A DNA stretch of 64,000 bases from Candidatus Moraniibacteriota bacterium (GTDB taxonomy: Bacteria; Patescibacteriota; Minisyncoccia; Moranbacterales; UBA2206). Numbering within the stretch: the first letter of the stretch is position 1; each line of letters starts with the position of its first letter. The stretch is from positions 9,182 through 73,181 of the forward strand of contig DPJH01000036.1 of NCBI GenBank assembly GCA_003543115.1, read 5' to 3'. The notes under the pieces were generated by a model. That model was given only the letters and a program-made list of their open reading frames with translations. It searched no databases and was not told the origin of the DNA. A program made the position numbers and the translations under genes. Below are positions 1 to 13,267 of this stretch, piece after piece.

Positions 1-207
1 GCATCCATCAGTCGCACCTGTTTCATTACTGAGTTTTCTTTACCGCCCTTTATCAAAATAATTTCTTCTGGATTAATATCGGATAAATCAAGTTTCGAAA
101 CAGAATATACTTGCCTATATCCGGATCCTTTTTCTTCGGTAGGGAGATTAAAATGTCTATGATATTTAGCGGTAATTTTAAAGAATTCATACACTAAGTC
201 TTTCATG
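1..207 (-). CDS. hypothetical protein, 5' portion only (gene runs off window start)
   Basis: The minus-strand ATG is at 207 and the frame stays open to position 1, translating MKDLVYEFFKITAKYHRHFNLPTEEKGSGYRQVYSVSKLDLSDINPEE. I recognised no family. Confidence 0.3.
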
Positions 208-556
208 GTTTTCTCCTTTTCGAATTTTGAGCCCGATAGTGGACGAGGTGATAAATTGTCGATGAACTTGTTAAGATGTGTTTCTTTGTTATTTCATCTT
301 AACAAGTAAGTATACCAGAAAAATGGTCAAGGGTCAATTATTATGTCTAGTGATTATTTGTTAAATATGACAAAAATTCAATAAAATAGGGATAAAATCA
401 GTAATATATTGATAGTCGTTTGTAGATGTCAAGATTATTGACTATTTTGGGGGATGTGGTAAGATGGGGTTATAATTGAGTATTTTCACACCCCCTCTTT
501 AATTCTCCCCCTCAAAGAGGAGGAGAGGATAGGGTGCGTAGCTCTATATAAATATC

Positions 557-1336
557 ATGAATCATTTAATTGAACCATTGAAAAATCTAGGTTTATCCGA
601 GAAAGAAGTCTTGGTTTATTTGGCGTTGCTTCAATTAGGCTCAGCTACTCCTTACCAAATCGCCAAAAAATCCGGCATTAAAAGGCCCACTGCTTATGTC
701 ATTGCTGAGGATTTGGTTAAAAAAGGCTTAATCGTGCATGTGCCCGGGGAAGAAAAGAAAAGATATATCGCCAAATCGCCAGAAGCTTTTATAGAGGAGC
801 GAGAAGAAAAGCTTATGGCAGCCAAGCAAATATTGCCGGAACTTAAATCATTTCAAAAAAATAGCGAACAAAAAGCTAGTATTATGTATTTTGAAGGAAT
901 GGAGGGTTTGAAACAGGCTTATCAATATAAAGAAAAAGAATTGCACAACAAAGAAATAGTAGGATTTTTCGCTTCCAATGAGGACGCCACGCCAGAAGTG
1001 AATGATTTTTTTATGAAATGGAATGAATACAAAGAAAAAAATAATACTAAAGTGCGCGGAGTAACCGTAGATACGCCGCTCTTGAAATCTTTTGATAAAT
1101 TTATCAATAAAGATATGCACACTATTACGGCCAAATTTCTACCGGAAAGCATGTATAGCGCCAAAATCTCTATTGAAGCGTGTGACGACCAATTTGTCCG
1201 AATCTTTCTTTATGAAAGCGTAGAAACATTAATTGTGGAGTCTCCCAAATTCACCAAGGCAATCAAAGAAATTTTTGAACTGGTCTGGAAAAGCCTAGAA
1301 GGAAAATACGATTCACCCTCCACCTGGGAAAAATAA
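557..1336 (+). CDS. TrmB-family HTH transcriptional regulator
   Basis: The N-terminus has a winged helix-turn-helix typical of TrmB (LSEKEVLVYLALLQLGSATPYQIAKKSGIKRPTAYVIAEDLVKKGLI) followed by a C-terminal sensor-like region. Confidence 0.6.
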   Translation: MNHLIEPLKNLGLSEKEVLVYLALLQLGSATPYQIAKKSGIKRPTAYVIAEDLVKKGLIVHVPGEEKKRYIAKSPEAFIEEREEKLMAAKQILPELKSFQKNSEQKASIMYFEGMEGLKQAYQYKEKELHNKEIVGFFASNEDATPEVNDFFMKWNEYKEKNNTKVRGVTVDTPLLKSFDKFINKDMHTITAKFLPESMYSAKISIEACDDQFVRIFLYESVETLIVESPKFTKAIKEIFELVWKSLEGKYDSPSTWEK

Positions 1337-1438
1337 TTTTTAAAATTGTTCTTGAATTTTCCGATTCCGAATGCTAAAATAAATAATAAAAGTTGCATGT
1401 ACTACGAACTATAAACTACTAACCATAAACTAAACGCT

Positions 1439-2158
1439 ATGTCAGGACATTCACATTGGGCAGGAATAAAACATAAAAAGGGCTTAAACGATGCTAAAAG
1501 GGGCAAGGTTTTCACTAAACACGCCAAGATGATCACCATTATGTCTCGAGATGGCGGAGGCAAGCCGGAAATGAATTTCCAGTTGCGCCTAGCCATTGAT
1601 CGGGCGCGTTTGGATAATATGCCTAGGGAAAACATAGAGCGCGCCATCAAAAAAGGCACCGGCGAGCTCAAGGACGGAGCGGAAATCACTGAAATCATCT
1701 ATGAAGGCATCGGACCTGGAAATGTCATGATGCTTGTCAAAACCGCGACTGACAATCGAAACAGGACAGTTAGTGAGATCAAGAGCATCTTCACTAAGGC
1801 CGGAGGGAAATTAGGCGAGATGGGAAGTTCGATGTGGAATTTCAAAAAAGTAGGCAATATCGTAATTCCTGTTTCAGAAGGCGAAGATCCATACGCCGTC
1901 GAAGAAAAAGCTATTGATGCCGGAGCGGAAGATACGCTCTATGAAGACAGCTCGCTCATTGTCTACACTCTTCCGGAAAATTTGAAAAGCGTACAGGAAA
2001 ACCTGGAAAAAATGGGAATGAAAATCGAAGATGCAGGTCTCGTTTATGCACCTTTGCAAAAAACCACCCTTTCCACTGAAGCACAAATCGATTATGAGAA
2101 ACTTCTTGAAACGCTTGATGAGCAAGATGATGTGCAGGAAATTTTCGATAATTTATAG
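1439..2158 (+). CDS. yebC: YebC/PmpR family DNA-binding regulator
   Basis: Starts MSGHSHWAGIKHKKG, the hallmark YebC N-terminus, and has the typical 239-aa length. Confidence 0.85.
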   Translation: MSGHSHWAGIKHKKGLNDAKRGKVFTKHAKMITIMSRDGGGKPEMNFQLRLAIDRARLDNMPRENIERAIKKGTGELKDGAEITEIIYEGIGPGNVMMLVKTATDNRNRTVSEIKSIFTKAGGKLGEMGSSMWNFKKVGNIVIPVSEGEDPYAVEEKAIDAGAEDTLYEDSSLIVYTLPENLKSVQENLEKMGMKIEDAGLVYAPLQKTTLSTEAQIDYEKLLETLDEQDDVQEIFDNL

Positions 2159-2285
2159 TCATAAAATTCATATCTAATCGATACGGCCATAGCTTCTTTT
2201 TTAAAGAAGCTATTTTGTCGCACATGATAAAAATTCACTTCTTAAAATCTATTTTTAAGACTATAATAGTAAGTAAGAGAATATT

Positions 2286-2801
2286 ATGGATAAAAAATTA
2301 ACCACCCAGGTTTCTGGCGTACGGGTTCTCGGCATTGATCCCGGTACCGCAACCGTAGGCTGGGCTATTATCGAAGAAATAAATGGCGTTTTATGCCCGA
2401 TAGCTTTTGGCCATATTTCTACGGAAAAAGACAAGAGTGAAGAAAATCGTCTGTGTGAAATTTCTTGCGACATTCAAAATATTATTGAAAAATATAAACC
2501 TCAAGAGGCTGCAGTGGAACAATTATTTTTTTTTAAAAACAAAAAAACCATCATCAGTATCGGACAATCCAGAGGAGCCATCCTATTGACTCTGGAGCAG
2601 AAAAATGTTAGCATATCCAGTTATACTCCGCTCCAAGTGAAACAGTCTGTAACGGGTTATGGCAAGGCAGAAAAAAGACAAATTCAGCTTATGGTAAAAA
2701 GTATCCTAAAATTAAAATCCATTCCTAAGCCTGATGACGTTGCTGATGCTATTGCTGTTGCAATTTGCCACATAAATAGCCGCAAAATTAATAATTTATA
2801 A
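2286..2801 (+). CDS. ruvC: Holliday junction resolvase RuvC
   Basis: Contains LGIDPGTATVGWAII (the RNase H-like catalytic Asp region) and a C-terminal DDVADAIAVAI motif. Length is 171 aa. Confidence 0.85.
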   Translation: MDKKLTTQVSGVRVLGIDPGTATVGWAIIEEINGVLCPIAFGHISTEKDKSEENRLCEISCDIQNIIEKYKPQEAAVEQLFFFKNKKTIISIGQSRGAILLTLEQKNVSISSYTPLQVKQSVTGYGKAEKRQIQLMVKSILKLKSIPKPDDVADAIAVAICHINSRKINNL

Positions 2802-2810
2802 CCTTCACCT

Positions 2811-3467
2811 ATGGAAACAACTATCAGTCCTATTATAAAATTCTTTATTCTGCAGGGCGTTCCTATGGAAACTATTATTCTTATCCTGATGCTCCCTCTC
2901 ATTGCTACTTTTATAGCCTTTTTACGGCAAGTAGTAGGAATTAAGGCTTTTGGAATATACACTCCGCTCATCATCACCTTTGCGTTCCTCGCCACCAATG
3001 GACTGCGCTATGGAATCGCTATTTTCCTGGTTATTCTTTTTTTAGGCATGCTTATGCGTTTTATGCTAAAGCCTTTCCGTCTGCTCTATCTTCCTCGAGT
3101 AGCTATAATGCTTACAGTGGTAGCCCTATTTATTCTTTTATTCTTATTTTTCGGAGGCGTCATACAAAGAACCGGACTGGCTTCTGTCTCCATCTTTCCC
3201 ATAGTCATTATGATCACATTAGTAGAAAAATTCGTTTCTGTTCAAATTGAAAAAGGCGACAGAACCGCTCTTATTTTGGCTTTTGAAACCCTTATAATAT
3301 CCATAATTGGTTTTTACATAGCCAGTTGGGGAACACTACGCACCATGCTATTATCCTATCCATGGCTAATCCTGCTCACCATTCCAATCAACATAATCAT
3401 TGGAAAATGGACCGGACTTCGCATCAGTGAATATATCCGTTTTCGCAATATTCTTAAAAAGCTTTAA
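2811..3467 (+). CDS. 7-TM integral membrane protein (partner of ATP-grasp ligase)
   Basis: It has about seven hydrophobic helices and lies immediately upstream of the alpha-L-glutamate-ligase-like ATP-grasp gene with a 3-nt gap. This matches the known conserved pairing of a 7TM protein with TIGR02291-type ligases. Confidence 0.5.
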   Translation: METTISPIIKFFILQGVPMETIILILMLPLIATFIAFLRQVVGIKAFGIYTPLIITFAFLATNGLRYGIAIFLVILFLGMLMRFMLKPFRLLYLPRVAIMLTVVALFILLFLFFGGVIQRTGLASVSIFPIVIMITLVEKFVSVQIEKGDRTALILAFETLIISIIGFYIASWGTLRTMLLSYPWLILLTIPINIIIGKWTGLRISEYIRFRNILKKL

Positions 3468-3470
3468 TCT

Positions 3471-4877
3471 ATGTTTCAGTTTTTCAAAAATAGCAAAAAA
3501 CTTCTCGGCATGAATTCAAGAAATCTTGAATTTATTCGGCCTTATAATCTTCGAGGTGCCAAGAGATTGGCTGATGATAAGCTTCTCAGCAAAAAAATTC
3601 TCAGAAAAAATGAAATTGCTATTCCCAGGCTTATCGCTAAAATAAAAACTATTGAAGATTTAGAAAATTTTGATTGGCAAAGCCTTCCCACCAGTTTCGC
3701 CTTGAAGCCTAGCCGAGGTTTTGGAGGAGAAGGAATCGTTGTGGTTTATGGAAAGAAAAAAAACAGAAATGATGCTTGGATAAAAGCCGATCGTTCTATT
3801 GTCACCATAGATGATCTGCGAAATCACATAAGAAACATTCTTGACGGATCTTTTTCGCTTTCCAATACGCCAGATGTAGCTTTTTTCGAAGAACGCTTGC
3901 AGCTGCTCAAGCTTTTTAAGCCTTATTGCTATAAGGGCATACCGGATATCCGTATTATTGTTTTTAATAAAGTTCCGATTATGGCTATGCTAAGACTTCC
4001 CACTAAAGAATCCCATGGAAAGGCTAATTTACAGCAAGGAGCCGTGGGAGTGGGAATTGACATGGCCACTGGCGTCACCACCACTGCTATCCAAGGCAAA
4101 AGCAGTTTCATTGAAAAAATTCCCGACACAGAACTTTCCGTTAGCGGACTTAAAATTCCCTACTGGAAAGATATGCTGACACTGGCTGTCAAAACCCAAA
4201 AAATTTCTAAATTAGGTTTTTTGGGAGTGGATGTGGCGATTGATAAGAATCTCGGACCTGTCATCCTTGAACTTAATGCCCGCCCAGGACTTTCTATTCA
4301 AGTAGCTAATTTAGCAGGACTTGCGGAAAGACTCAAAAGAGTTTCCGGATTAAAAATACAGACTATTGCCAAAGGAGTGCGCATGGGAATGGATCTTTTT
4401 GGAGGAGAGATTGAAGAAGAACTAGAGGAAATTTCCGGAAAAAAAGTAATTGGAACAATCGAAAAAGTGAGGCTCATGGGAAAAAACGGAAAAGAAATTG
4501 AAGTTGAAGCTAAAATTGACACAGGAGCGTTTTCCACTTCTATTGATACAAAAATTGCTCTAGAATTAGGATTTGAAGATGTTTTAAAATACTTTTCTTC
4601 TCTTGATTTGCCTAAAAATTTTTCCAGAGAGGAATCAAAAAAAATAGAAGAGGATCTCAAAAGAAAATATCTTGAAAAACATCCTGATTTAGCTGATATA
4701 ATTATAATATATTCTTCCAGCGGAGTTTCAGTGCGCCCTAAGATAAAAATTTCTTTTATTCTAGATGGAATAACTATTACATCCAAGGTTAATGTCATTG
4801 ACCGCAGCGAATTAAATTATTCTGCTATTATAGGAAAACAAGATTTAAGAAAATTTTTAATTGATGTAAATAAATAA
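3471..4877 (+). CDS. alpha-L-glutamate ligase-like ATP-grasp enzyme fused to a C-terminal retropepsin-like (RimB/'ATP-dependent zinc protease' PF05618-type) domain
   Basis: The N-terminus (MNSRNLEFIRPYNLRGAKRLADDKLLSKKIL...KPSRGFGGEGIVVV) matches the RimK-related alpha-L-glutamate ligase-like family. The C-terminal roughly 130 aa (IGTIEKVRLMGKNGKEIEVEAKIDTGAFSTSID) carry a D-T-G-A aspartic-protease motif like RimK-associated RimB proteins. Confidence 0.65.
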   Translation: MFQFFKNSKKLLGMNSRNLEFIRPYNLRGAKRLADDKLLSKKILRKNEIAIPRLIAKIKTIEDLENFDWQSLPTSFALKPSRGFGGEGIVVVYGKKKNRNDAWIKADRSIVTIDDLRNHIRNILDGSFSLSNTPDVAFFEERLQLLKLFKPYCYKGIPDIRIIVFNKVPIMAMLRLPTKESHGKANLQQGAVGVGIDMATGVTTTAIQGKSSFIEKIPDTELSVSGLKIPYWKDMLTLAVKTQKISKLGFLGVDVAIDKNLGPVILELNARPGLSIQVANLAGLAERLKRVSGLKIQTIAKGVRMGMDLFGGEIEEELEEISGKKVIGTIEKVRLMGKNGKEIEVEAKIDTGAFSTSIDTKIALELGFEDVLKYFSSLDLPKNFSREESKKIEEDLKRKYLEKHPDLADIIIIYSSSGVSVRPKIKISFILDGITITSKVNVIDRSELNYSAIIGKQDLRKFLIDVNK

Positions 4878-4883
4878 TGCCAG

Positions 4884-5798
4884 ATGAAAAAGATCCTACT
4901 TATCGGAATTGGGGAAGAAAATAATCCCAGCCAAAAAATAATAATTGCTCTCAAAAAACAAAAGATCCCCTATATATACACCAAATGGTCCAATCTGTCT
5001 TTTCAAGGAGAAAATGTTTATATGGGATTGGAAACAATCAACTTTAAAAACATAAGATCTGTCATATTTGATATTTTCCGTTTTCCTATAATAAAAAAAG
5101 AAAACAAAGAAGAGATCAATTACAATCTAGAAAATGAATTCAATGTATTACTCAACCTGATTAAAGAAAAAGGGATCTACACTCCAAATCAATCTTTTTT
5201 TTCACAATACCCTTTTTATAATAAATTTTCGCAAATGCACGTCTTTGCTTCAAAAAAAATCCCTTCTATACCTACTGTCCATCTTTGTGACAATAAAAAA
5301 GAAAAGGTCTTTAACTTATTAAAACAGCTCGCCCCCTCTTTTCCTTTGGTGGTAAAAGAAAGTTATGGGGGGGGTGGAAATAATGTTTGGAAAGTAAAGA
5401 CAAAAAAAGAATTGGAGAATTTTATTGAAAAGAGAAGGAATGTAAATATTGTTTTTCAGCCTTACATAAAAAATGATGCGGACTATAGGGCGATTGTCAT
5501 AAACGGAGATTGTCTTGGTATAATGAAACGAAGCGCGCAAAAGGGGCAATGGAAAAATAACTTTTCTCTAGGCGGAAAGGTGGAAAAATATGCAGATAAA
5601 AAAATGGAACGTTTTGCTGTTATGGTTTGTAAAAAATTAGGGCTTGAAATGGCTGGTCTGGATATTCTTTCCACAAAAAATGGCTTTGCAATAATTGAGA
5701 TTAACCTATTTTTCGGGCTTGATGGCTTTCAGTCAGTTTATCCTGAAATAAATGTAGCGGAAAAAATAATCAATTTTGTTAATACTAAAGTTATATGA
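4884..5798 (+). CDS. RimK/glutathione-synthetase-like ATP-grasp ligase
   Basis: Carries ATP-grasp motifs: LVVKESYGGGGNNVW, DYRAIVINGDCLG, NNFSLGGK and AGLDIL...AIIEIN. Confidence 0.6.
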   Translation: MKKILLIGIGEENNPSQKIIIALKKQKIPYIYTKWSNLSFQGENVYMGLETINFKNIRSVIFDIFRFPIIKKENKEEINYNLENEFNVLLNLIKEKGIYTPNQSFFSQYPFYNKFSQMHVFASKKIPSIPTVHLCDNKKEKVFNLLKQLAPSFPLVVKESYGGGGNNVWKVKTKKELENFIEKRRNVNIVFQPYIKNDADYRAIVINGDCLGIMKRSAQKGQWKNNFSLGGKVEKYADKKMERFAVMVCKKLGLEMAGLDILSTKNGFAIIEINLFFGLDGFQSVYPEINVAEKIINFVNTKVI

Positions 5799-6754
5799 AA
5801 AAAGTAATGATCCTTTTCGGAAAAAGCAATTGGCAAAAAGCCAAGCCTTTTTCCAATAAGGAATATCAATATTCATATGAATATTTTTATTCTTTATGCA
5901 AAAAAAATGAGATTCAGATGTATCGCGCTTCTTATCAGTGGTACGATTATAAAAATCATGTTTTTAAATATGCTTGGATTTATGAGGGAGAAAACGGAAA
6001 TTGGAAAAAAGTTAAAAATATCAAACCTGATTTGATTTATGATAAAACCAAGGCTCGCATGGAAACATATTATATGAAAGAATTGATAGGAGAAAATTAT
6101 CCATTCATCAATAATCAGCTTTTTACGAGGCTTATTGATGATAAATTCACCACCAGCCTAATTTTTTCCGATTGGAGCAAAAAAAATTGGCTTATAAAAA
6201 ATACCTCTGAACTAAGGGATGTTCTTCCCAAAATAAAAACAACGAAAATCGTTATTAAGCCTCTTATGGAAAGCGGCGGCAATGGAGTCCAGGTTTTGTC
6301 CAAAAAAGAAGCTTTGAAAAAAGCCTGTCTTCAGGAAACTAATTTAGTTCAAGAGTTCATTGATTCTTCAAAAGGAGTTCCTAATATCAGCCATTCCATG
6401 CATGATTTGCGCATAGTTATGGTTAATGAAAAAATTATTTATGCCTATATCCGAGAGCCGAAAAAGGGAAGTTATTTAGCCAACCTTGCTCAAGGCGGCT
6501 CTTTAAAAATCGTACCCAAAGAAAAACTCCCAAAATCTATTCTTCCTATAATAAAATCTGTCAATGAAATTTTGTCTTCTTTTAACCCAAGGGTTTTTTC
6601 TATAGACTTTATGTTTGATGAAAATAAAAAACCTTGGATTGTTGAACTTAATTCTATGCCGGGACTCTTTTTCACTTCAGAAGAAAAGCCTTATATGCTA
6701 GAAATGTATCAAGAATTATTAAATGTTTTTAAAAAAGAATTAAATTTGATTTAA
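5795..6754 (+). CDS. ATP-grasp ligase (YheC/YheD- or TTL-like)
   Basis: Shows KIVIKPLMESGGNGVQVL, DLRIVMVNEKIIYAYIR, ANLAQGGS and WIVELNSMPGL. Its start overlaps the stop of the upstream gene (ATGA), indicating an operon. Confidence 0.55.
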   Translation: MKKVMILFGKSNWQKAKPFSNKEYQYSYEYFYSLCKKNEIQMYRASYQWYDYKNHVFKYAWIYEGENGNWKKVKNIKPDLIYDKTKARMETYYMKELIGENYPFINNQLFTRLIDDKFTTSLIFSDWSKKNWLIKNTSELRDVLPKIKTTKIVIKPLMESGGNGVQVLSKKEALKKACLQETNLVQEFIDSSKGVPNISHSMHDLRIVMVNEKIIYAYIREPKKGSYLANLAQGGSLKIVPKEKLPKSILPIIKSVNEILSSFNPRVFSIDFMFDENKKPWIVELNSMPGLFFTSEEKPYMLEMYQELLNVFKKELNLI

Positions 6755-6760
6755 TTTCGT

Positions 6761-7249
6761 ATGCCAAGGATAATTAAAAAATTATCTGCTAAAGATAATT
6801 TGATTCTTCTTAAAATGCATAATAAAAATTTTTCTTCTTCTTATTGGGAAGAGGATAATTGGAATCACTTTTTATCACCCGACAGAAAGTCTCTTATGTG
6901 TGCCATTAAAAAGAAGGGTGCTTACGCAGGTTTTATAATGGGAAAACCCACACAAGCAAGCTGTTCTGTCATGCTCCTCAATACTCTGCTTGTAGCGCCT
7001 GCTTATAGAAAAAATGGCTATGGAAAAAGGCTGGTTGCTTTCTTTTTAAGCACTGCCTTTTCCATTCCTCAAACAAGGAAAGTGATTTTGCATTTTCGAG
7101 ATTCAAATAAAAAAATTCTTCTTCCTTTTTATAAGAAACTGGGCTTCGGAAATCATTCGATCAGGGGTTTTTATACTAATGGAGAGCTCAAGCATTATAT
7201 GTCCCTAACAAAAAAATGTTTCCTCAAAGAATCAAAAAGCCTTAGCTAA
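6761..7249 (+). CDS. GNAT family N-acetyltransferase
   Basis: Has the acetyl-CoA binding motif LVAPAYRKNGYGKRLV and is 162 aa. It is the last gene of the ATP-grasp operon. Confidence 0.6.
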   Translation: MPRIIKKLSAKDNLILLKMHNKNFSSSYWEEDNWNHFLSPDRKSLMCAIKKKGAYAGFIMGKPTQASCSVMLLNTLLVAPAYRKNGYGKRLVAFFLSTAFSIPQTRKVILHFRDSNKKILLPFYKKLGFGNHSIRGFYTNGELKHYMSLTKKCFLKESKSLS

Positions 7250-7357
7250 AAACAAGGTTTTTTTGTATACTAGTCATATAAGAACTTTTCTTGTCTAATT
7301 GTTTGAAAAGTCTTTCATTTTACTGTAAAATATAAAGAATATTAAAGTAATAATTTT

Positions 7358-9895
7358 ATGTATATTTTTTCACCTAAAAGCTCAAATAATGATTTTTCCA
7401 GAAATTTTCCACAAAAAAAATTCAAAATAAACTGGAAACTATTAAGAAAAATCTTTCTTTATTCTTTTATTGCAGGAATGCTTTTAGTGGTAGGAATTTT
7501 TGCTTGGTTCGCCAAAGACCTTCCCAGTCCTGGAAAGGTCAATACTCGCGTGGTGGCAGAATCCACGAAAATTTATGATCGCACCGGAGATCATATTCTC
7601 TATGACATCCACGGAGAAGAGAAAAGAACACAAATATCTTTTAATGACATTCCAGAAACACTGCGCTATGCCACTATTTCTCTGGAAGACCAAAATTTCT
7701 ACAGCCATCCCGGCTTTGATATTAAGGGTCTTGTTAACGCGGTTATGTCTAACATACTAAAAGTGGGCGGCGGAAGAGGCGGTTCAACCATTACGCAGCA
7801 ATTTGTTAAAAATTCACTTCTGTCCGGAGAAAGGTCATTATCTCGCAAAGTAAAAGAGTTGATTTTGGCTATAGAAATTGAAGTTAAATTCTCTAAAGAT
7901 GAGATTTTGGGAATGTACCTTAATGAAATCCCTTATGGATCAAATGCTTATGGCATAGAAGCTGCTGCCCAAACTTTTTTTGGCAAGCATGCATCCGAGC
8001 TTACACTCGACGAGGCAAGCCTTTTAGCTTCTCTTCCCCAAGCTCCTTCTTATTATTCTCCTTATGGAAGCCACACAGATGCTCTTCGCGGCAGGCAAGT
8101 ATATGCTTTGTCTCAAATGAAAAACCTTGGCTATATAACAGAAGAGCAATTTATAGCTGCTAAAGAAGTGGATGTTTTAGATAAGATAAAGCCCTCCTCA
8201 GAAAACATTTCTGCTCCTCATTTTGTAATGTATATCAAAGAATATTTGGAAAAAAACTATGGGAAGCAGGTTCTTGAGCAGGGAGGACTAAAAGTCTACA
8301 CCACTCTTGACTGGGACAAGCAACAAATAGCGGAACAAGCAGTTAGAGAAGGAGCTGAATCCAACACTAAAAAATATAAAGCAGAAAATGCCGCTTTTGT
8401 AGCTATGGACCCTAAAACCGGACAGATTTTAGCCATGGTAGGAAGCAAAGATTATTTCGATAAGTCTATCGACGGACAAGTAAATGTTTCTATTCGAGAG
8501 CGCCAACCAGGCTCATCATTCAAGCCCTTTGTCTATCTTACCGCTTTCAAAAAAGGCTACTTGCCAGAAACTCAACTTTGGGATGTAGATACGAATTTTT
8601 CTGTTGACAGCGAAAAAGATTATAATCCTAAAAATTATGACGGAAAAAATCATGGATTGCTTCAAATGAAAGATGCTCTGGCAATGTCTCTTAATGTTCC
8701 CGCCGTTAAAACTCTTTATCTTGCAGGAATTAATGATTCTATCACCACCGCCAAATCTCTTGGCATAACTACGCTTAATAAGCCTGATAATTATGGCCTT
8801 TCTCTTGTTCTTGGCGGTGGAGAGGTAACGCTTCTAGATCATGTAAACGCGTATGGAACCCTAGCTACCGGAGGAATTCATCATAATAAAACCGGCATCT
8901 TAAGAATATCTGATTCGTCCGGAAAAGTTCTTGAAGAATATAAGGAAGATCCGGGTGAACGAGTCATTGAAGAAAAATATGTAGCTATGCTTGATTATAT
9001 ACTATCTACCAATTCTCTTCGCGAATCGGTTTTTGGAAAAAATAATCCATTAAGCTTTTCTGACCGCCCTGTGGCCGCTAAAACGGGCACCACAAACGAA
9101 TGGCGTGATGGTTGGACACTTGGATACACTCCGTCTATTGCAGCTGGCGTCTGGGCAGGAAATAACGATAATACTATTATGGCTCCAGGAGCTGATGGGG
9201 TTCTTGTCGCTGCTCCTATTTGGAGAAAATTTATGGATAATGTTCTAAAAAACTATACCATTGAAGATTTTCCTAAATATGAAGAGGAAAAGGATGTAGA
9301 AAAGGATATTTTAAAAGGCAAATTAGATCCGACAGGGAAAATAGAAGTGTGTAAAATAAAAAAGGATAAGTATTGTTTAGCCAGTGACGCTTGTCCTGAC
9401 GGATATTCAGAGAAAAAAGAGTTTTTTTCCGGTCATAATATTTTATGGTATGTGGATAAAAAAGATCCCCGAGGAGACACGCCTAAAAAACCTGAAGATG
9501 ACCCCCAATATAAAAACTGGGAAAAGGCCGTTCAAAAGTATGCTGAAAAAAATAAAGATTTTAAAAAAGATTCCGCCCCTACTGAAAAATGCGAGTCTGA
9601 TGATTTTTCAAATATAGAGCCTTCTGTTGAAATAAAAAATCCTTCTAATGAATCTACCATAACATCTTTCAATTTCAATATTAGTGCTTATGGATCCTCG
9701 CCTTTTGACATAGATAAGATAACTTTATATATAAATGGCGACGAGGTGGCTTCTAATAGCGGCTCTAAAATTGATTATGAATACAAAGTGCCTTCCGAAA
9801 AGAACAATTCTGACTTAGAAATAAAAGCCACAGTGAAAGACGGAAATAACTCATCAAAATCTACCAATATAAAGGTGCATATTGCCATTCCTTAG
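7358..9895 (+). CDS. class A penicillin-binding protein (PBP1A: glycosyltransferase + transpeptidase) with C-terminal extension
   Basis: Contains the GT51 motifs EDQNFYSHPGFD and GGSTITQQ, and the transpeptidase motifs SSFKP and KTGT. An N-terminal TM anchor is present. Confidence 0.85.
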   Translation: MYIFSPKSSNNDFSRNFPQKKFKINWKLLRKIFLYSFIAGMLLVVGIFAWFAKDLPSPGKVNTRVVAESTKIYDRTGDHILYDIHGEEKRTQISFNDIPETLRYATISLEDQNFYSHPGFDIKGLVNAVMSNILKVGGGRGGSTITQQFVKNSLLSGERSLSRKVKELILAIEIEVKFSKDEILGMYLNEIPYGSNAYGIEAAAQTFFGKHASELTLDEASLLASLPQAPSYYSPYGSHTDALRGRQVYALSQMKNLGYITEEQFIAAKEVDVLDKIKPSSENISAPHFVMYIKEYLEKNYGKQVLEQGGLKVYTTLDWDKQQIAEQAVREGAESNTKKYKAENAAFVAMDPKTGQILAMVGSKDYFDKSIDGQVNVSIRERQPGSSFKPFVYLTAFKKGYLPETQLWDVDTNFSVDSEKDYNPKNYDGKNHGLLQMKDALAMSLNVPAVKTLYLAGINDSITTAKSLGITTLNKPDNYGLSLVLGGGEVTLLDHVNAYGTLATGGIHHNKTGILRISDSSGKVLEEYKEDPGERVIEEKYVAMLDYILSTNSLRESVFGKNNPLSFSDRPVAAKTGTTNEWRDGWTLGYTPSIAAGVWAGNNDNTIMAPGADGVLVAAPIWRKFMDNVLKNYTIEDFPKYEEEKDVEKDILKGKLDPTGKIEVCKIKKDKYCLASDACPDGYSEKKEFFSGHNILWYVDKKDPRGDTPKKPEDDPQYKNWEKAVQKYAEKNKDFKKDSAPTEKCESDDFSNIEPSVEIKNPSNESTITSFNFNISAYGSSPFDIDKITLYINGDEVASNSGSKIDYEYKVPSEKNNSDLEIKATVKDGNNSSKSTNIKVHIAIP

Positions 9896-10183
9896 TTTGA
9901 CAAAACATAAAAAAAGGAGTATACTGAAAATAGTTAATAAGAAACGGGTGATTTTTATCCTCCGTTTTTTATGTTTTAAAACCCCACACCAATTCCTGTT
10001 AATAAATTTTAATTGGAAGTGGCGTGGGGGCTAAAAACAAAAATAAAAATAAAAACAAATAAAGCAGCCTGCGCAAGCAGAATCAAAAAAACAAGGCTAG
10101 GTATTCCTTGCCTTAGGCCCAGAAGTTAATCTTCGAGGGTTCTAAATAAAAAGCGCCTCTCAATAAAATGGAGGCTGCTTTTT

Positions 10184-10462
10184 TTATATTTTTATTTTAT
10201 CTATCGCCTTGCCGCCTATTTCACTGTTAATTTTCCTTACTATTTTATCTCTATTAAGCCATAATTCAGAAGACCAGACGGAGCTGTTGGATTTTATAAA
10301 AATAGTCTTGTCTTTGTAATATTCCGGGCGCAAATTAGCCAGGCCAATATTCCCAAACTCTTCTTTGATTATTTTTTTAAAAATAAAAAAAATAGTCTTG
10401 TCGTCAAGATTTTTTACTTGAAAAACATTCTTTTGGGATAAATAGCTCTTAATTAATTTCAT
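10184..10462 (-). CDS. DUF721/DciA-like protein
   Basis: A 92-aa basic protein sits directly downstream of dnaN with a 1-nt gap. DUF721 (DciA) proteins characteristically sit in dnaA-dnaN operons. Confidence 0.45.
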   Translation of the reverse strand: MKLIKSYLSQKNVFQVKNLDDKTIFFIFKKIIKEEFGNIGLANLRPEYYKDKTIFIKSNSSVWSSELWLNRDKIVRKINSEIGGKAIDKIKI

Positions 10463-10463
10463 C

Positions 10464-11618
10464 CTATCCTTTTATTGGCATTACAATATATATATATTCA
10501 TCTAAAACTTCTCCTGTTTTTTCATTTATCTCCTTAATAGCCACCGGGGAAGATTCATTGTTTAATAAAATTGCCACCTTGCCGGTTCCAATAATATTTA
10601 TTCCATCTAAAAGGTATTTTGAGTTAAAAACTACTTCTTGAGATGGCCCTACGATGTCTACCATAAGCTCTGTTGAATTTTCTCCACACTCTACGCTTCT
10701 CGCTTCAATAAAAAACTTTTCTGCCTCAGAATCGATTTTAAAAACGATCTCGCTATTTTTAGTTTTGGAAAAAACGCTCGACATTTTTATTGCTCCTTGA
10801 ATAGTACTTTTTTCACCCACAACCCTTGTTTGAAATTCCTTAGGCATTATATGTTTATATTCAGGATATTTCCCATTAATAAGCCTTGATACAATATTAA
10901 CCCCATTAATCTCAAAAAATATCTGTCCATCCTCTATGGCTATATTTATTTCTTCATCTATTTCACTGTTTATGATACGAGCTATTTCTGATAGTGTATT
11001 GGCAGGTATAATTATGCTGTCTTTTTTAGAGATAAAATCAAGATAACCATCTTTTATATTACCCTCTTCCAATAAAAATTTATTTTCTACCAATCGAAAA
11101 CTGTCAGTAGAGGCAAAATATAATTCATTTTCTTTAAAAATAAGATTTATCCCTGTTAATTCTTGTCTAGTTTCATTAAAAGCCACGCAGCTAATAACCT
11201 TGTTTATTATATTTTTTAATTTAATACTAGAAAGAGTTAATATATAATCACTATTTTTCCTTGGCAAAAGAGGAAAATCATCTGCCATCAATCCTTTTAT
11301 TATTGCTTTAGATGTACCACTTTTTATTTTTAAATTCTGATTATCCACCTCTATATTAATATTTTCTCCAGAAGGAAGATTATTTATAAAATTACTTATA
11401 AGTTTTGCAGGAATTGTAATTTTTCCTTCCTTTTCAATTTTAGCTCCTATTTGTTTAGAAATACCTATTTCCAAATTTGTAGCGGATATTTTCAAAACAC
11501 CATTTTCTGTCTCAAATAATATATTATTCAAAATAGGCAATGTGTTTTGTTTAGAAACTACCCTTTCTGAATTTAGAATAGCTTTTTTGAATTTTTCTTG
11601 AGTGCATGTAAGTTTCAT
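10464..11618 (-). CDS. dnaN: DNA polymerase III beta sliding clamp
   Basis: It is 384 aa with a three-domain clamp architecture and lies immediately downstream of dnaA. Confidence 0.85.
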   Translation of the reverse strand: MKLTCTQEKFKKAILNSERVVSKQNTLPILNNILFETENGVLKISATNLEIGISKQIGAKIEKEGKITIPAKLISNFINNLPSGENINIEVDNQNLKIKSGTSKAIIKGLMADDFPLLPRKNSDYILTLSSIKLKNIINKVISCVAFNETRQELTGINLIFKENELYFASTDSFRLVENKFLLEEGNIKDGYLDFISKKDSIIIPANTLSEIARIINSEIDEEINIAIEDGQIFFEINGVNIVSRLINGKYPEYKHIMPKEFQTRVVGEKSTIQGAIKMSSVFSKTKNSEIVFKIDSEAEKFFIEARSVECGENSTELMVDIVGPSQEVVFNSKYLLDGINIIGTGKVAILLNNESSPVAIKEINEKTGEVLDEYIYIVMPIKG

Positions 11619-11890: not shown

Positions 11891-13267
11891 TCAAGTAATC
11901 TTATATAACCTTTCCTTTATAAGGGTTATTTCTTCTATTAATTTATCATTATTTTTTAATTCTCTGGTTATTTTATTACAAGCATGAATAGTTGTTGTGT
12001 GGTCTCTTCCTCCTAATTTTTCTCCTATTCCCGGAAAAGAATATTCTAATTCGCTTCTCATAAGATACATCGCGATTTGTCGTGGCTTAACAACCTCTTT
12101 TTTTCTATTTTTAATAATCAGATCATTTGGGTTTATATCATAAAAAGACGAGACAATATTGATAATATGTTTATGGTTGATGCCTTTTTTCTTTCCACTG
12201 GTAATAAGTTCTGATAGAAGGGTTGAAACATATTCTAAAGAAGGCTCTTTTCCGCTTAATTGAGAGGAGACCATAACTCTATTAAAAGCTCCTTCAAGTT
12301 CACGAATATTATTAGTTATGTTTTCAGCTATAAAGCTTAATGTTTCACTGGGAATATTAAAATTTTCATCACGAGATTTCTTGCTTAATATAGCCATTCT
12401 TGTTTCAAAATCAGCTTTTGAAACATCAGCAATCATGCCTCCTTCAAAACGTGAACGCAATCTTTCTTCTAGGGTTGGAATAGCTTTTGGAGCTCTATCG
12501 CTGCTTAAAACAATTTGTTTGTTAAGTTGGTATAAATAATTAAAAATATGGAAAAATTCCTCCTGCGTTTTTTCTTTTCCAGATAAAAACTGAACGTCAT
12601 CTATAATCAAAAGATCTATTTTTTGATAATGCTCCTTGAAATCATTTACCTTTTGTGTTCTAATAGAATCTATAAGTTCACTTGTAAAGCGCTCTGAAGT
12701 TATATATTTTACTTTTCTAGAGGGATTTTTTTGTAATATTTCATTGCCAATAGATTGAAGAAGATGTGTTTTTCCAAGTCCCACGCCTCCGTAAATAAAC
12801 AAAGGATTGTAAATTCTGCCTAGATTTTGAGAAACAGCGTAACAAGCAGCCTTAGCAAGCTCATTGCTTGATCCGACTATAAAATTTTCAAAAGTATATT
12901 TAGGATTAAGATTATTTTCTTGGCTTATGGTAAGGGTTTTTTTAATGAGAGGCTTATTTAAGATAATTTTCTTTGGAGGTTGAATAGCATCCACCCTGTT
13001 CTCTGAAAAAGAAGTATCATCGCTTGTTTTTATAGAACAAACAACCTCTCGTATGTTGTTTTGGGTATTGCGGAGAGCTTTAAGAATATATAGATTATAT
13101 TTATTCTCCAGCCATTCTTTAGCAAATCCATTTGGAACGCCAATAACAACCCTTCCATTTTCACTGGAAAGGATAGAAGTGTTTTTAAACCACGTAATAA
13201 AATTAGCTTTCGAAATTGAAAGTTCTATTTCCCCCAAAGCAGCCCTCCAAAGCTCTTCATTAGTCAT
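11891..13267 (-). CDS. dnaA: chromosomal replication initiator DnaA
   Basis: Has the AAA+ Walker A GVGLGKTHL and the C-terminal DnaA-box binding domain (GGRDHTTTIHACNKI). Confidence 0.9.
   Translation of the reverse strand: MTNEELWRAALGEIELSISKANFITWFKNTSILSSENGRVVIGVPNGFAKEWLENKYNLYILKALRNTQNNIREVVCSIKTSDDTSFSENRVDAIQPPKKIILNKPLIKKTLTISQENNLNPKYTFENFIVGSSNELAKAACYAVSQNLGRIYNPLFIYGGVGLGKTHLLQSIGNEILQKNPSRKVKYITSERFTSELIDSIRTQKVNDFKEHYQKIDLLIIDDVQFLSGKEKTQEEFFHIFNYLYQLNKQIVLSSDRAPKAIPTLEERLRSRFEGGMIADVSKADFETRMAILSKKSRDENFNIPSETLSFIAENITNNIRELEGAFNRVMVSSQLSGKEPSLEYVSTLLSELITSGKKKGINHKHIINIVSSFYDINPNDLIIKNRKKEVVKPRQIAMYLMRSELEYSFPGIGEKLGGRDHTTTIHACNKITRELKNNDKLIEEITLIKERLYKIT

What the first reader, a model, noticed from the sequence alone, without database searches (positions are those of the whole stretch)
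3471..4877. ATP-grasp ligase fused to a retropepsin-like (RimB-type) aspartic protease domain
The C-terminal roughly 130 aa (KVRLMGKNGKEIEVEAKIDTGAFSTSID...) carry the D-T-G-A aspartyl-protease signature. They resemble the standalone RimK-associated PF05618 proteins (RimB in Pseudomonas rimABK), which process RimK or its substrates. A fusion to an alpha-L-glutamate-ligase-like enzyme suggests a self-contained ligate-then-trim peptide-tailoring enzyme.
Basis: partly seen in the sequence, partly recalled or inferred. Interest (0 to 1): 0.55.

Follow-up and report, generated by a model that had tools for sequence, protein, structure and literature searches.

The report
Ligase–protease fusion of the Rlo system
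One gene in an uncultured Moranbacteria genome joins a peptide-building ATP-grasp ligase to a retrovirus-like aspartic protease; this is a compact, undescribed variant of the recently characterised bacterial Rlo/Rim glutamate-tail systems, not a new kind of system.

Summary
ORF 3471-4877 (+) encodes 468 aa in three parts. Residues 1-310 are an ATP-grasp ligase (PF14397, E 2.6e-70; TIGR02291 293.9 bits, just under its 314.2 cutoff). Residues 313-322 are a strongly conserved linker helix. Residues 324-468 are a retropepsin-like domain (PF05618, 32 bits against a cutoff of 27; profile match to the RloA crystal structures at E 2e-10; Foldseek top hits RloA2, APRc and Ddi1).

D350-T-G-A, R422 and R445 are invariant in 81 of 81 orthologues. 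The two arginines align with an R-P and a D-R-S motif in the RloA structures.

The window comes from a Candidatus Moranbacteria MAG. The fusion is conserved in at least 80 species-level genomes. In all 77 of the 80 fetched loci with upstream sequence it follows a 7TM gene homologous to the membrane half of RloB.

It is therefore a compact Rlo-type module (truncated RloB plus an RloC::RloA fusion), not a Rim-type one. The protease sits in the cytoplasm.

A RimB-RimK hybrid was published in 2025, but with the opposite domain order and a different ligase family. I found no description of this fusion.

Ligate-then-trim is plausible but inferred. Verdict: a new variant of a known kind, of moderate interest.

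The parts
2811..3467 (+). 7TM membrane partner, homologous to the C-terminal membrane half of RloB. It has no transglutaminase domain.
   Evidence: PF14402 7TM_transglut, E 7.6e-30, profile positions 57-247 of 248. NCBIfam RloB model positions 304-507 of 508, E 5.3e-23. Hydrophobic across aa 7-198. It ends 4 nt before the fusion gene. A homologue lies directly upstream of the fusion gene in all 77 of the 80 loci that have upstream sequence, and also in L086 and L084.
3471..4877 (+). Whole fusion gene, 468 aa: RloC-type ATP-grasp ligase joined to an RloA/RimB-type retropepsin domain.
   Evidence: 100% identical to a Candidatus Moranbacteria MAG protein. AlphaFold2 model from a 68-sequence alignment: mean pLDDT 93.6, pTM 0.72. 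No TM or signal-like segment; the maximum 19-residue hydropathy is 1.27.
3471..4400 (+). ATP-grasp ligase domain, aa 1-310.
   Evidence: PF14397, E 2.6e-70; TIGR02291 293.9 bits. K79, the G83/G85/G86/G88 loop, R175, K184, D254, E267, N269 and R271 are invariant in 81 of 81 orthologues. Foldseek top hits are ArgX/LysX, cyanophycin synthetase, RimK and Ddl. The match to unfused Aeromonas RloC runs to query residue 311 and ends five codons before that gene's stop codon.
4398..4445 (+). Conserved linker motif F-G-G-E-I-E-E-E-L-E-E-I-S-G-K-K, aa 310-325. Aa 313-322 are predicted helical.
   Evidence: Translation. Fixed length and about 0.86 mean column identity across 81 orthologues; that equals the ligase core and exceeds most of the protease domain, where aa 371-450 score 0.36-0.60. 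Predicted as helix H313-322. Distant homologues keep the hydrophobic i/i+4/i+7 spacing and the S-G-K, but often swap Glu for Lys, Arg or Gln.
4440..4874 (+). Retropepsin-like aspartic peptidase domain, aa 324-468.
Evidence: PF05618 32.0 bits against a cutoff of 27. RloA1-3 models 25-29 bits. PDB sequence and profile hits to RloA and RloA2. hhalign 97.3% to Legionella RloA.
4518..4529 (+). Catalytic motif D350-T-G-A. Associated basic residues: K348 (nt 4512-4514), R422 (nt 4734-4736) and R445 (nt 4803-4805).
   Evidence: Translation. D, T, G, A, R422 and R445 are invariant in 81 of 81 orthologues; position 348 is K in 74 and R in 7. D, G, A, R422 and R445 are also invariant in 19 domains of 26-60% identity. 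They align with K-x-D-T-G-A, R-P and D-R-S in RloA and RloA2. In P. aeruginosa RloA, K46, R114 and R137 contact poly-Glu, and the R114A and R137A mutants are inactive (PMC12239564). Equating those residues with K348, R422 and R445 is my inference from the conserved motifs.
4575..4679 (+). Two-helix insertion, aa 369-403, ahead of the flap-like beta-hairpin (aa 409-431).
   Evidence: Secondary structure H369-376 and H386-403. It is the least conserved part of the protein, with column identity 0.36-0.41. It is absent from shorter fused homologues and from the MATCAP fusions, where HMM positions about 47-88 are unmatched.
4884..6754 (+). Two further ATP-grasp genes (4884-5798 and 5795-6754). They may be accessory ligases; whether they belong to the module is tentative.
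   Evidence: PF08443 RimK-like, E 3.3e-29 and 5.8e-14. Both score below the NCBIfam rimK_fam cutoff (116.7 and 51.7 bits against 143.4). Spacing is tight: a 6-nt gap and a 4-nt overlap. The number of such paralogues between the fusion gene and PBP1A varies from 0 to 3 among the 80 loci. One homologue, P0191, carries a second ATP-grasp fused after the retropepsin domain.

Best explanation
The gene encodes a cytoplasmic bifunctional enzyme of the Rlo family. Together with the 7TM protein encoded just upstream, it forms a compact two-gene version of the rloABC system.

Shown by sequence and structure prediction:
- Residues 1-310 are an ATP-grasp amide ligase of the RloC/TIGR02291 type, with all ATP/Mg-binding residues intact.
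- Residues 324-468 are a retropepsin-like aspartic peptidase of the RimB/RloA (PF05618) family. It has an intact D-T-G-A motif and conserved Lys/Arg residues that align with basic residues of RloA.
- A rigid, conserved helix joins the two domains.

Inferred:
- Each chain carries only one catalytic Asp, so the protein must dimerise through the protease domain to form an active site.
- The ligase, docked on the cytoplasmic C-terminal face of the 7TM partner, builds or extends an acidic peptide. This is most likely an alpha-linked poly-glutamate, either free or on a carrier.
- The tethered endopeptidase cuts that product. This sets its length or releases it, so a harmful untrimmed product does not accumulate.

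The last point mirrors P. aeruginosa, where loss of rloB or rloC suppresses the defects of mutants lacking the RloA proteases.
For: Domain identity.

Catalytic competence: K79, D254, E267, N269, D350-T-G-A, R422 and R445 are invariant in 81 of 81 orthologues. D350, G352, A353, R422 and R445 also stay invariant down to 26% identity.

Rlo-type context: PF14402 and RloB C-terminal-half hits for ORF 2811-3467. The 7TM gene is directly upstream in all 77 of the 80 loci that have upstream sequence. The same holds for a 36%-identical homologue in a different neighbourhood (L086) and for a triple-fusion relative (L084).

Physical coupling of 7TM and ligase: 7TM-ATP-grasp fusions exist in Halobacterium (L083) and in P0292, P0294 and P0301. 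These place the ligase at the C-terminus of the 7TM domain.

Cytoplasmic location: the ATP-dependent domain lies in the same chain, and there is no TM or signal segment. No cysteine pair is conserved; only 17 of 81 sequences have any Cys in the domain.

A peptidase is needed next to the ligase: among relatives that add a MATCAP metallopeptidase, 43 of 43 keep HExxxH but only 4 of 43 keep D[TS]G in the retropepsin part. Among two-domain proteins, 29 of 35 keep D[TS]G.

Literature: RimB and RloA cut stretches of at least 6 and at least 8 Glu respectively. RimB stimulates RimK. A RimB-RimK hybrid is proteolytically active. Deleting rloB or rloC suppresses the rloA1-3 triple mutant (PMC11957791; PMC12239564).
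Against: No biochemistry exists for this protein or for any RloC; the ligase substrate and product are unknown even in Pseudomonas.

The TIGR02291 score (293.9) is below the curated cutoff (314.2), so this is a related subfamily and not a certified equivalog.

The region ahead of the flap hairpin carries a lineage-specific two-helix insertion, which could change specificity.

The protease sits in the cytoplasm, whereas RloA is secreted. The two systems may therefore not share a substrate.

No ORF in the window has an acidic run or an acidic tail that could serve as an encoded substrate.

The synteny among the 80 loci partly reflects close relatedness; all are one Moranbacteria-like clade at 61-75% identity.
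Confidence: 0.6

Rival explanations
1. The ligase, with the variable downstream ATP-grasp paralogues and the GNAT, builds a non-glutamate or mixed peptide on a membrane- or envelope-associated acceptor. The retropepsin domain matures or recycles that product. It does not trim poly-Glu.
For: The locus holds two more ATP-grasp genes and a GNAT. Paralogue number varies from 0 to 3 between species. L084 has three extra ATP-grasps and an extra MATCAP. P0191 fuses a second ATP-grasp after the retropepsin domain. Pfam names the family 'sugar-transfer associated'. In most of the 80 loci the module lies upstream of PBP1A. The lineage-specific helical insertion near the flap could alter specificity.
Against: The Lys/Arg residues that align with basic residues of RloA are invariant, which favours an acidic substrate. 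The accessory genes are absent from many loci that keep the 7TM-fusion pair, so they are not core. The synteny with PBP1A comes from one clade only.
Confidence: 0.2
2. The protease domain mainly acts on its own polypeptide. Like a retroviral protease in a polyprotein, it cuts the Glu-rich linker (EIEEELEE) and releases itself. This leaves the ligase with an acidic C-terminal tail.
For: The linker is Glu-rich and as conserved as the catalytic core. RimB and RloA are Glu-specific endopeptidases that can cut internal sites. The first, shallow model gave the linker very low confidence.
Against: The linker has at most 3 contiguous Glu, whereas RimB needs at least 6 and RloA at least 8. Distant homologues keep the hydrophobic i/i+4/i+7 spacing and the S-G-K but replace the acidic residues with Lys, Arg or Gln. 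The deeper model predicts a helix at aa 313-322. The conserved pattern therefore looks structural.
Confidence: 0.1
3. This is a Rim-type system. [quoted passage not shown]
For: PF05618 is the RimB family. An active RimB-RimK hybrid is known. The downstream genes resemble RimK and RimI weakly.
Against: The ligase scores 44.6 bits on the rimK_fam model (cutoff 143.4) and 12.7 bits on the RimK equivalog (cutoff 331), against 293.9 bits on TIGR02291. Domain order is the reverse of RimBK. A membrane 7TM partner is always adjacent; Rim systems have none.
Confidence: 0.07
4. The retropepsin domain is a non-catalytic dimerisation or substrate-binding scaffold.
For: In most MATCAP triple fusions, and in 6 of 35 two-domain relatives, the D[TS]G motif is lost while the domain is kept.
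Against: In the window's clade, D-T-G-A, R422 and R445 are invariant in 81 of 81 sequences. The motif decays mainly where another peptidase is fused.
Confidence: 0.05

Closest known systems
RloABC system of Pseudomonas and other Gammaproteobacteria (Lormand et al. 2025, PMC12239564)
   Same: It has the same three modules: a TIGR02291/PF14397 ATP-grasp (RloC), a PF14402 7TM membrane protein (RloB) and a PF05618 retropepsin (RloA). The genes are adjacent and co-directional. D-T-G-A and aligned basic residues are conserved. Canonical unfused examples were retrieved here: Legionella adelaidensis plasmid L081 and Aeromonas caviae L082.
   Different: Here the protease is fused to the C-terminus of the ligase, so it is cytoplasmic; RloA is a separate, secreted, disulfide-bonded protein. 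The RloB homologue lacks the whole periplasmic inactive-transglutaminase half (218 aa against about 510). Gene order is B then C::A, where the canonical order is A-B-C. The host is a Patescibacteria (CPR) lineage, whereas the paper reports 96% of RloB hits in Proteobacteria.
RimBK hybrid (Desulfotalea psychrophila DP2392; Little et al. 2025, PMC11957791)
   Same: It is a single polypeptide that combines a PF05618 retropepsin with an ATP-grasp glutamate-ligase relative. The hybrid's protease domain was shown to cut poly-glutamylated RpsF.
   Different: Domain order is reversed: RimB is N-terminal in RimBK, while here the protease is C-terminal. The ligase belongs to a different family (RimK against RloC-type). 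RimBK has no membrane partner. It was reported mainly in Flavobacteriales and Rhodobacterales. The two fusions are most simply explained as independent events.
RimB / RimK of Pseudomonas (RimABK)
   Same: The retropepsin is cytoplasmic and works with an ATP-grasp ligase. RimB trims the poly-Glu that RimK adds, and it stimulates RimK.
   Different: They are separate proteins, the target is ribosomal protein S6, and no 7TM partner is involved. The window's ligase scores far below the RimK model cutoffs.
Ligase-retropepsin-like-MATCAP triple fusions in other CPR bacteria (for example P0171 / EKD49309.1)
   Same: They share the same RloC-type ligase, the same linker pattern, a retropepsin-like middle domain and a 7TM gene upstream, in the same YebC-RuvC neighbourhood.
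   Different: They add a C-terminal PF08014 metallopeptidase domain with an intact HExxxH, and most have lost the D[TS]G motif. The window protein has no MATCAP domain, and none is encoded elsewhere in the window.

Membership tests
PF05618 RimB/RloA retropepsin-like peptidases | Pfam HMM score at or above the gathering threshold | tested here: met
   32.0 bits against 27. A profile of the domain hits the RloA structures at E 2e-10.
PF05618 RimB/RloA retropepsin-like peptidases | D-T/S-G-A catalytic motif, one per chain | tested here: met
   D350-T-G-A, invariant in 81 of 81 orthologues.
PF05618 RimB/RloA retropepsin-like peptidases | Retropepsin fold | tested here: met
   In the AlphaFold2 models the domain scores pLDDT 83-98 over nearly its whole length. 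Foldseek top hits are RloA2, APRc, RloA, 2pma, Ddi1 and retroviral proteases. This rests on a predicted structure, not a solved one.
PF05618 RimB/RloA retropepsin-like peptidases | Conserved basic residues lining the substrate channel (RloA K46, R114, R137) | tested here: met
   K348, R422 and R445 align with K-x-D, R-P and D-R-S of RloA and RloA2 and are invariant or K/R only. The mapping onto the P. aeruginosa RloA residue numbers is inferred from these motifs.
PF05618 RimB/RloA retropepsin-like peptidases | Homodimer with poly-Glu endopeptidase activity | not testable with these tools
   This needs SEC-MALS and cleavage assays. No multimer prediction was available.
Secreted RloA subclass | N-terminal signal peptide and a conserved disulfide cysteine pair | tested here: not met
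   The domain is internal, following a cytoplasmic ATP-grasp. There is no hydrophobic segment. Only 17 of 81 sequences have any Cys in the domain.
RloC / TIGR02291 alpha-L-glutamate ligase-like | NCBIfam score at or above the curated cutoff | tested here: not met
   293.9 bits against 314.2. This is a near miss, and PF14397 is met at E 2.6e-70. It is best treated as a sister subfamily.
RloC / TIGR02291 alpha-L-glutamate ligase-like | Intact ATP-grasp nucleotide and Mg-binding residues | tested here: met
   K79, the Gly-rich loop, D254, E267, N269 and R271 are invariant. The fold matches ArgX, RimK and CphA.
rloABC operon | [quoted passage not shown] | tested here: inconclusive
   The 7TM half is present and adjacent (PF14402; RloB model positions 304-507). 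The transglutaminase half is absent.
RimBK hybrid | RimB domain N-terminal to a RimK-family ligase | tested here: not met
   The protease is C-terminal. The ligase scores 44.6 bits on rimK_fam against a cutoff of 143.4. The architecture is described in PMC11957791.

The most novel reading that the evidence does not exclude
The CPR two-gene module (7TM protein plus ligase::protease) is a minimal form of the Rlo system in which the product is both made and cut on the cytoplasmic face of the membrane. Together with the sister fusions that swap the retropepsin active site for a MATCAP-type carboxypeptidase, it would define a widespread prokaryotic writer/eraser machinery for acidic peptide tails. 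That machinery would parallel the eukaryotic TTL/TTLL ligases and the MATCAP/CCP peptidases. It would also mean the rlo system is not a gammaproteobacterial innovation derived from rim.
Probability: 0.25. Interest if true: 0.7.

Novelty: new variant of a known kind. Interest (0 to 1): 0.42.

Why it matters
The Rlo system was described only in 2025. [quoted passage not shown] It also poses a puzzle: the ligase is cytoplasmic and the protease is secreted.

A natural fusion that puts both activities in one cytoplasmic chain, always beside the 7TM partner, is Rosetta-stone evidence that ligase, protease and membrane protein act on one substrate. It also gives a single soluble protein in which the ligate-and-trim hypothesis can be tested directly.

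The fusion extends the system from Proteobacteria to hundreds of Patescibacteria genomes. A related 7TM-ligase fusion extends it to an archaeal plasmid, which questions the proposed origin within Gammaproteobacteria.

The result is not transformative. Both domain families, their functional pairing and a different ligase-protease hybrid are already published.

Tried and rejected
1. Self-cleavage at the Glu-rich linker. This was attractive because the linker is as conserved as the active sites. It was weakened for three reasons. The linker has at most 3 contiguous Glu, against the 6 to 8 or more that RimB and RloA need. Distant homologues keep the hydrophobic periodicity but not the acidity. The deeper model predicts a helix there.

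2. Search for an encoded acidic substrate. No ORF of 80 aa or more in the window has 5 or more consecutive D/E, or an acidic C-terminal tail.

3. Search for MATCAP, or a second retropepsin or RloC copy, in the window. None was found.

4. Homologue search with the C-terminal domain alone. It returned only 37 short proteins, mostly fragments on short contigs, and gave no view of architectures.

5. The first structure model, from 18 close sequences, was poor for the ligase (pLDDT 57). It was redone with 68 diverse sequences (pLDDT 93.6).

6. Promoter and terminator scan of 1-10500. Counts did not exceed those in shuffled sequence, so the scan was uninformative.

7. Iyer et al. 2009 (PMC3268129) could not be read. 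From memory, that paper predicted the link between ATP-grasp, 7TM-transglutaminase and Asp-peptidase genes, so I cannot exclude that it mentions such fusions.

8. The afdb50 fold library was unavailable.

9. Literature searches for PF05618, PF14397, TIGR02291, DUF1704 and MATCAP with ATP-grasp found no description of this fusion.

10. RimB-like versus RloA-like ancestry of the domain could not be resolved, because no RimB sequence was available to me.
Full report
**1. The observation**

ORF 3471-4877 on the + strand is a single 468-aa frame containing the quoted peptide. D-T-G-A is at aa 350-353, nt 4518-4529.

- Pfam places PF14397 (ATPgrasp_ST) at aa 17-292 with E 2.6e-70. It gives PF05618 at 32.0 bits, above its gathering score of 27.
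- NCBIfam gives TIGR02291 (alpha-L-glutamate ligase-like) at aa 8-300 with 293.9 bits, just below the 314.2 cutoff. The three 'retropepsin-like aspartic peptidase RloA' models hit aa 322-467 at 25-29 bits.
- The protease call is confirmed independently. phmmer of aa 321-468 against PDB sequences finds P. aeruginosa RloA2 (9g59) at E 4.2e-6 and P. fluorescens RloA (9g58) at 2.2e-4.
- A profile of 19 diverse homologous domains finds 9g58 at 2.2e-10, 9g59 at 8.9e-9 and Legionella Lpg0085 (2pma) at 1.7e-6.
- hhalign against a Legionella adelaidensis RloA gives 97.3% probability.

**2. Structure**

A first AlphaFold2 model from 18 close sequences was good only for the C-terminal domain. Its Foldseek hits in the PDB were led by RloA2, Rickettsia APRc, RloA, 2pma, Ddi1 and retroviral proteases.

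A second model from 68 sequences reached mean pLDDT 93.6 and pTM 0.72. It shows:

- an ATP-grasp domain up to about residue 310;
- helices at 299-310 and 313-322;
- a beta-rich domain at 325-464, with a two-helix insertion (369-403) ahead of a flap-like hairpin (409-431).

Foldseek hits for the ligase part are ArgX/LysX, cyanophycin synthetase, RimK and Ddl. All of these ligate amino acids onto carboxylates of peptides or proteins.

**3. Source and conservation**

The protein is 100% identical to a hypothetical protein of a Candidatus Moranbacteria MAG. All 120 listed clusters at 67-100% identity match the query from end to end, and most carry both Pfam domains. The best 80, at 61-75% identity, all match the query from end to end.

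Across the window protein and those 80 orthologues:

- the ligase residues K79, the Gly loop, D254, E267, N269 and R271 are invariant;
- the protease residues D350, T351, G352, A353, R422 and R445 are invariant;
- position 348 is K in 74 sequences and R in 7.

D350, G352, A353, R422 and R445 remain invariant in domains as distant as 26% identity. These positions align with K-x-D-T-G-A, R-P and D-R-S in RloA and RloA2. In P. aeruginosa RloA, K46, R114 and R137 contact poly-glutamate, and the R114A and R137A mutants are inactive (PMC12239564). Equating those numbered residues with K348, R422 and R445 is my inference from the conserved motifs. Both domains therefore look catalytically competent.

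**4. Context**

The gene immediately upstream (2811-3467, ending 4 nt before the fusion gene) is a 218-aa polytopic membrane protein. It matches PF14402 and positions 304-507 of the 508-position RloB model. It is therefore the 7TM half of RloB without the periplasmic inactive-transglutaminase half.

Among the 80 fetched loci the order is YebC, RuvC, 7TM, fusion, then 0-3 further ATP-grasp paralogues (sometimes with a GNAT), then PBP1A. The 7TM gene is directly upstream in all 77 loci that have upstream sequence. That synteny could reflect relatedness alone. However, a 36%-identical fused homologue in an unrelated neighbourhood also has a 228-aa 7TM gene directly upstream (L086), and so does a triple-fusion relative (L084).

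Canonical unfused systems were retrieved for comparison:

- Legionella adelaidensis plasmid: RloA 170 aa, RloB 508 aa, RloC 314 aa.
- Aeromonas caviae: RloA 262 aa, RloB 512 aa, RloC 321 aa.

The match to unfused Aeromonas RloC runs to query residue 311 and ends five codons before that gene's stop codon. The fusion therefore begins where RloC normally ends.

A Halobacterium plasmid encodes a 584-aa 7TM-ATP-grasp fusion. Metagenomic representatives include further 7TM-ligase and transglutaminase-7TM-ligase fusions. These place the ligase at the cytoplasmic C-terminus of the 7TM domain.

**5. Survey of architectures**

An exhaustive phmmer search of 1.84 billion representatives gave 1977 hits at E <= 1e-3 and 432 at E <= 1e-30. 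I classified the best 150 plus two fragments from an earlier search, 152 sequences in all, with domain HMMs:

| Architecture | Count |
|---|---|
| ligase-retropepsin | 50 |
| ligase-retropepsin-like-MATCAP (PF08014), about 790 aa | 48 |
| ligase only | 48 |
| 7TM-ligase | 3 |
| retropepsin fragment | 1 |

One homologue adds a second ATP-grasp after the retropepsin domain. The list is ranked by similarity to the query, so it over-represents fused forms.

In the MATCAP fusions, 43 of 43 full-length proteins keep an HExxxH motif but only 4 of 43 keep D[TS]G. Among two-domain proteins, 29 of 35 keep D[TS]G. From memory, HExxxH is the zinc motif of MATCAP. The retropepsin active site thus decays mainly where another peptidase is attached. 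This argues that the ligase needs a peptidase partner, and that in the window's protein the retropepsin fills that role.

**6. The linker**

F310-G-G-E-I-E-E-E-L-E-E-I-S-G-K-K has a fixed length. Its mean column identity is about 0.86 across 81 orthologues. That equals the ligase core and exceeds most of the protease domain, where aa 371-450 score 0.36-0.60.

I considered that it might be a self-cleavage site, since RimB and RloA cut Glu runs. Three results argue for a structural helix instead:

- It has at most three contiguous Glu, whereas RimB needs at least 6 and RloA at least 8.
- Distant homologues keep the hydrophobic i/i+4/i+7 spacing and the S-G-K, but replace Glu with Lys, Arg or Gln.
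- The deeper model predicts a helix there.

**7. Mechanism**

Shown: the domain identities, intact catalytic residues, absence of any export signal, absence of a conserved cysteine pair, and the obligate 7TM neighbour.

Established by others:

- RimK makes poly-alpha-Glu and glutamylates S6. RimB trims these tails and stimulates RimK. A RimB-RimK hybrid is proteolytically active (PMC11957791).
- RloA is a dimeric retropepsin that cuts stretches of at least 8 Glu. Deleting rloB or rloC suppresses the defects of the rloA1-3 triple mutant (PMC12239564).

Inferred for this protein:

- It dimerises through the protease domain.
- The ligase works at the cytoplasmic face of the 7TM partner and makes an acidic peptide.
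- The tethered protease cuts that peptide, which sets its length or releases it.

The main alternative is that the ligase, together with the variable accessory ATP-grasps, builds a different, possibly envelope-linked peptide.

**8. Comparison with known systems and novelty**

The locus has the three modules of rloABC. It differs in gene order, in fusing C and A, in the cytoplasmic location of the protease, in lacking the transglutaminase half of RloB, and in its host phylum.

It differs from the published RimBK hybrid in domain order and ligase family, so the two fusions are most simply explained as independent events.

I found no description of this architecture in the searchable literature. 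I could not read Iyer et al. 2009. Databases already label these proteins generically, as 'alpha-L-glutamate ligase-like' or 'sugar-transfer associated ATP-grasp'.

Verdict: real, well supported, and a new variant of a known kind. Interest is moderate. Its main value is as Rosetta-stone evidence and as a tractable single-protein model for the poorly understood Rlo system.

Noticed in passing
P0171, P0175, P0181 and others; locus L084 3474-5876: Relatives of about 790 aa fuse the same ligase and a mostly inactivated retropepsin-like domain to a MATCAP (PF08014) metallopeptidase with an intact HExxxH. L084 also carries three more ATP-grasp genes and a standalone MATCAP gene. In eukaryotes MATCAP removes the tyrosine that the ATP-grasp enzyme TTL adds to tubulin (this point is from memory), so the pairing looks like a prokaryotic counterpart.
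   Followed up: partly
L083 4164-5918 (Halobacterium sp. DL1 plasmid); P0292, P0294, P0301: Single proteins fuse the RloB-type 7TM domain to the RloC-type ATP-grasp; P0301 also has a transglutaminase core. One of these is on an archaeal plasmid with no retropepsin gene nearby.
   Followed up: partly
window 4884-5798, 5795-6754, 6761-7249: Two more ATP-grasp genes (RimK-family-like, below the curated cutoffs) and a RimI-like GNAT acetyltransferase are packed tightly after the fusion gene. The number of such paralogues varies from 0 to 3 among 80 related genomes.
   Followed up: partly
window 10464-11618 (-) and 11891-13267 (-): By inspection of their translations, these ORFs look like dnaN and dnaA, so the window probably lies next to the chromosomal replication origin. 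They were not scanned against any family library.
   Followed up: no
L002, L005, L008, L015-L018, L022 and others: Many contigs syntenic with Moranbacteria (YebC-RuvC-7TM-fusion-PBP1A) are titled 'uncultured Bdellovibrionales', and one 'Candidatus Bathyarchaeia archaeon'. These are probably mislabelled or mis-binned records.
   Followed up: no
L086 7904-8665: A distant fused homologue (36% identity), with its 7TM partner, lies two genes from a heliorhodopsin gene and next to a two-component system.
   Followed up: no
window 4298-4798 (-): A 166-aa antisense ORF lies inside the fusion gene. It is Ser-rich opposite the Glu-rich codons and is almost certainly a shadow ORF.
   Followed up: no
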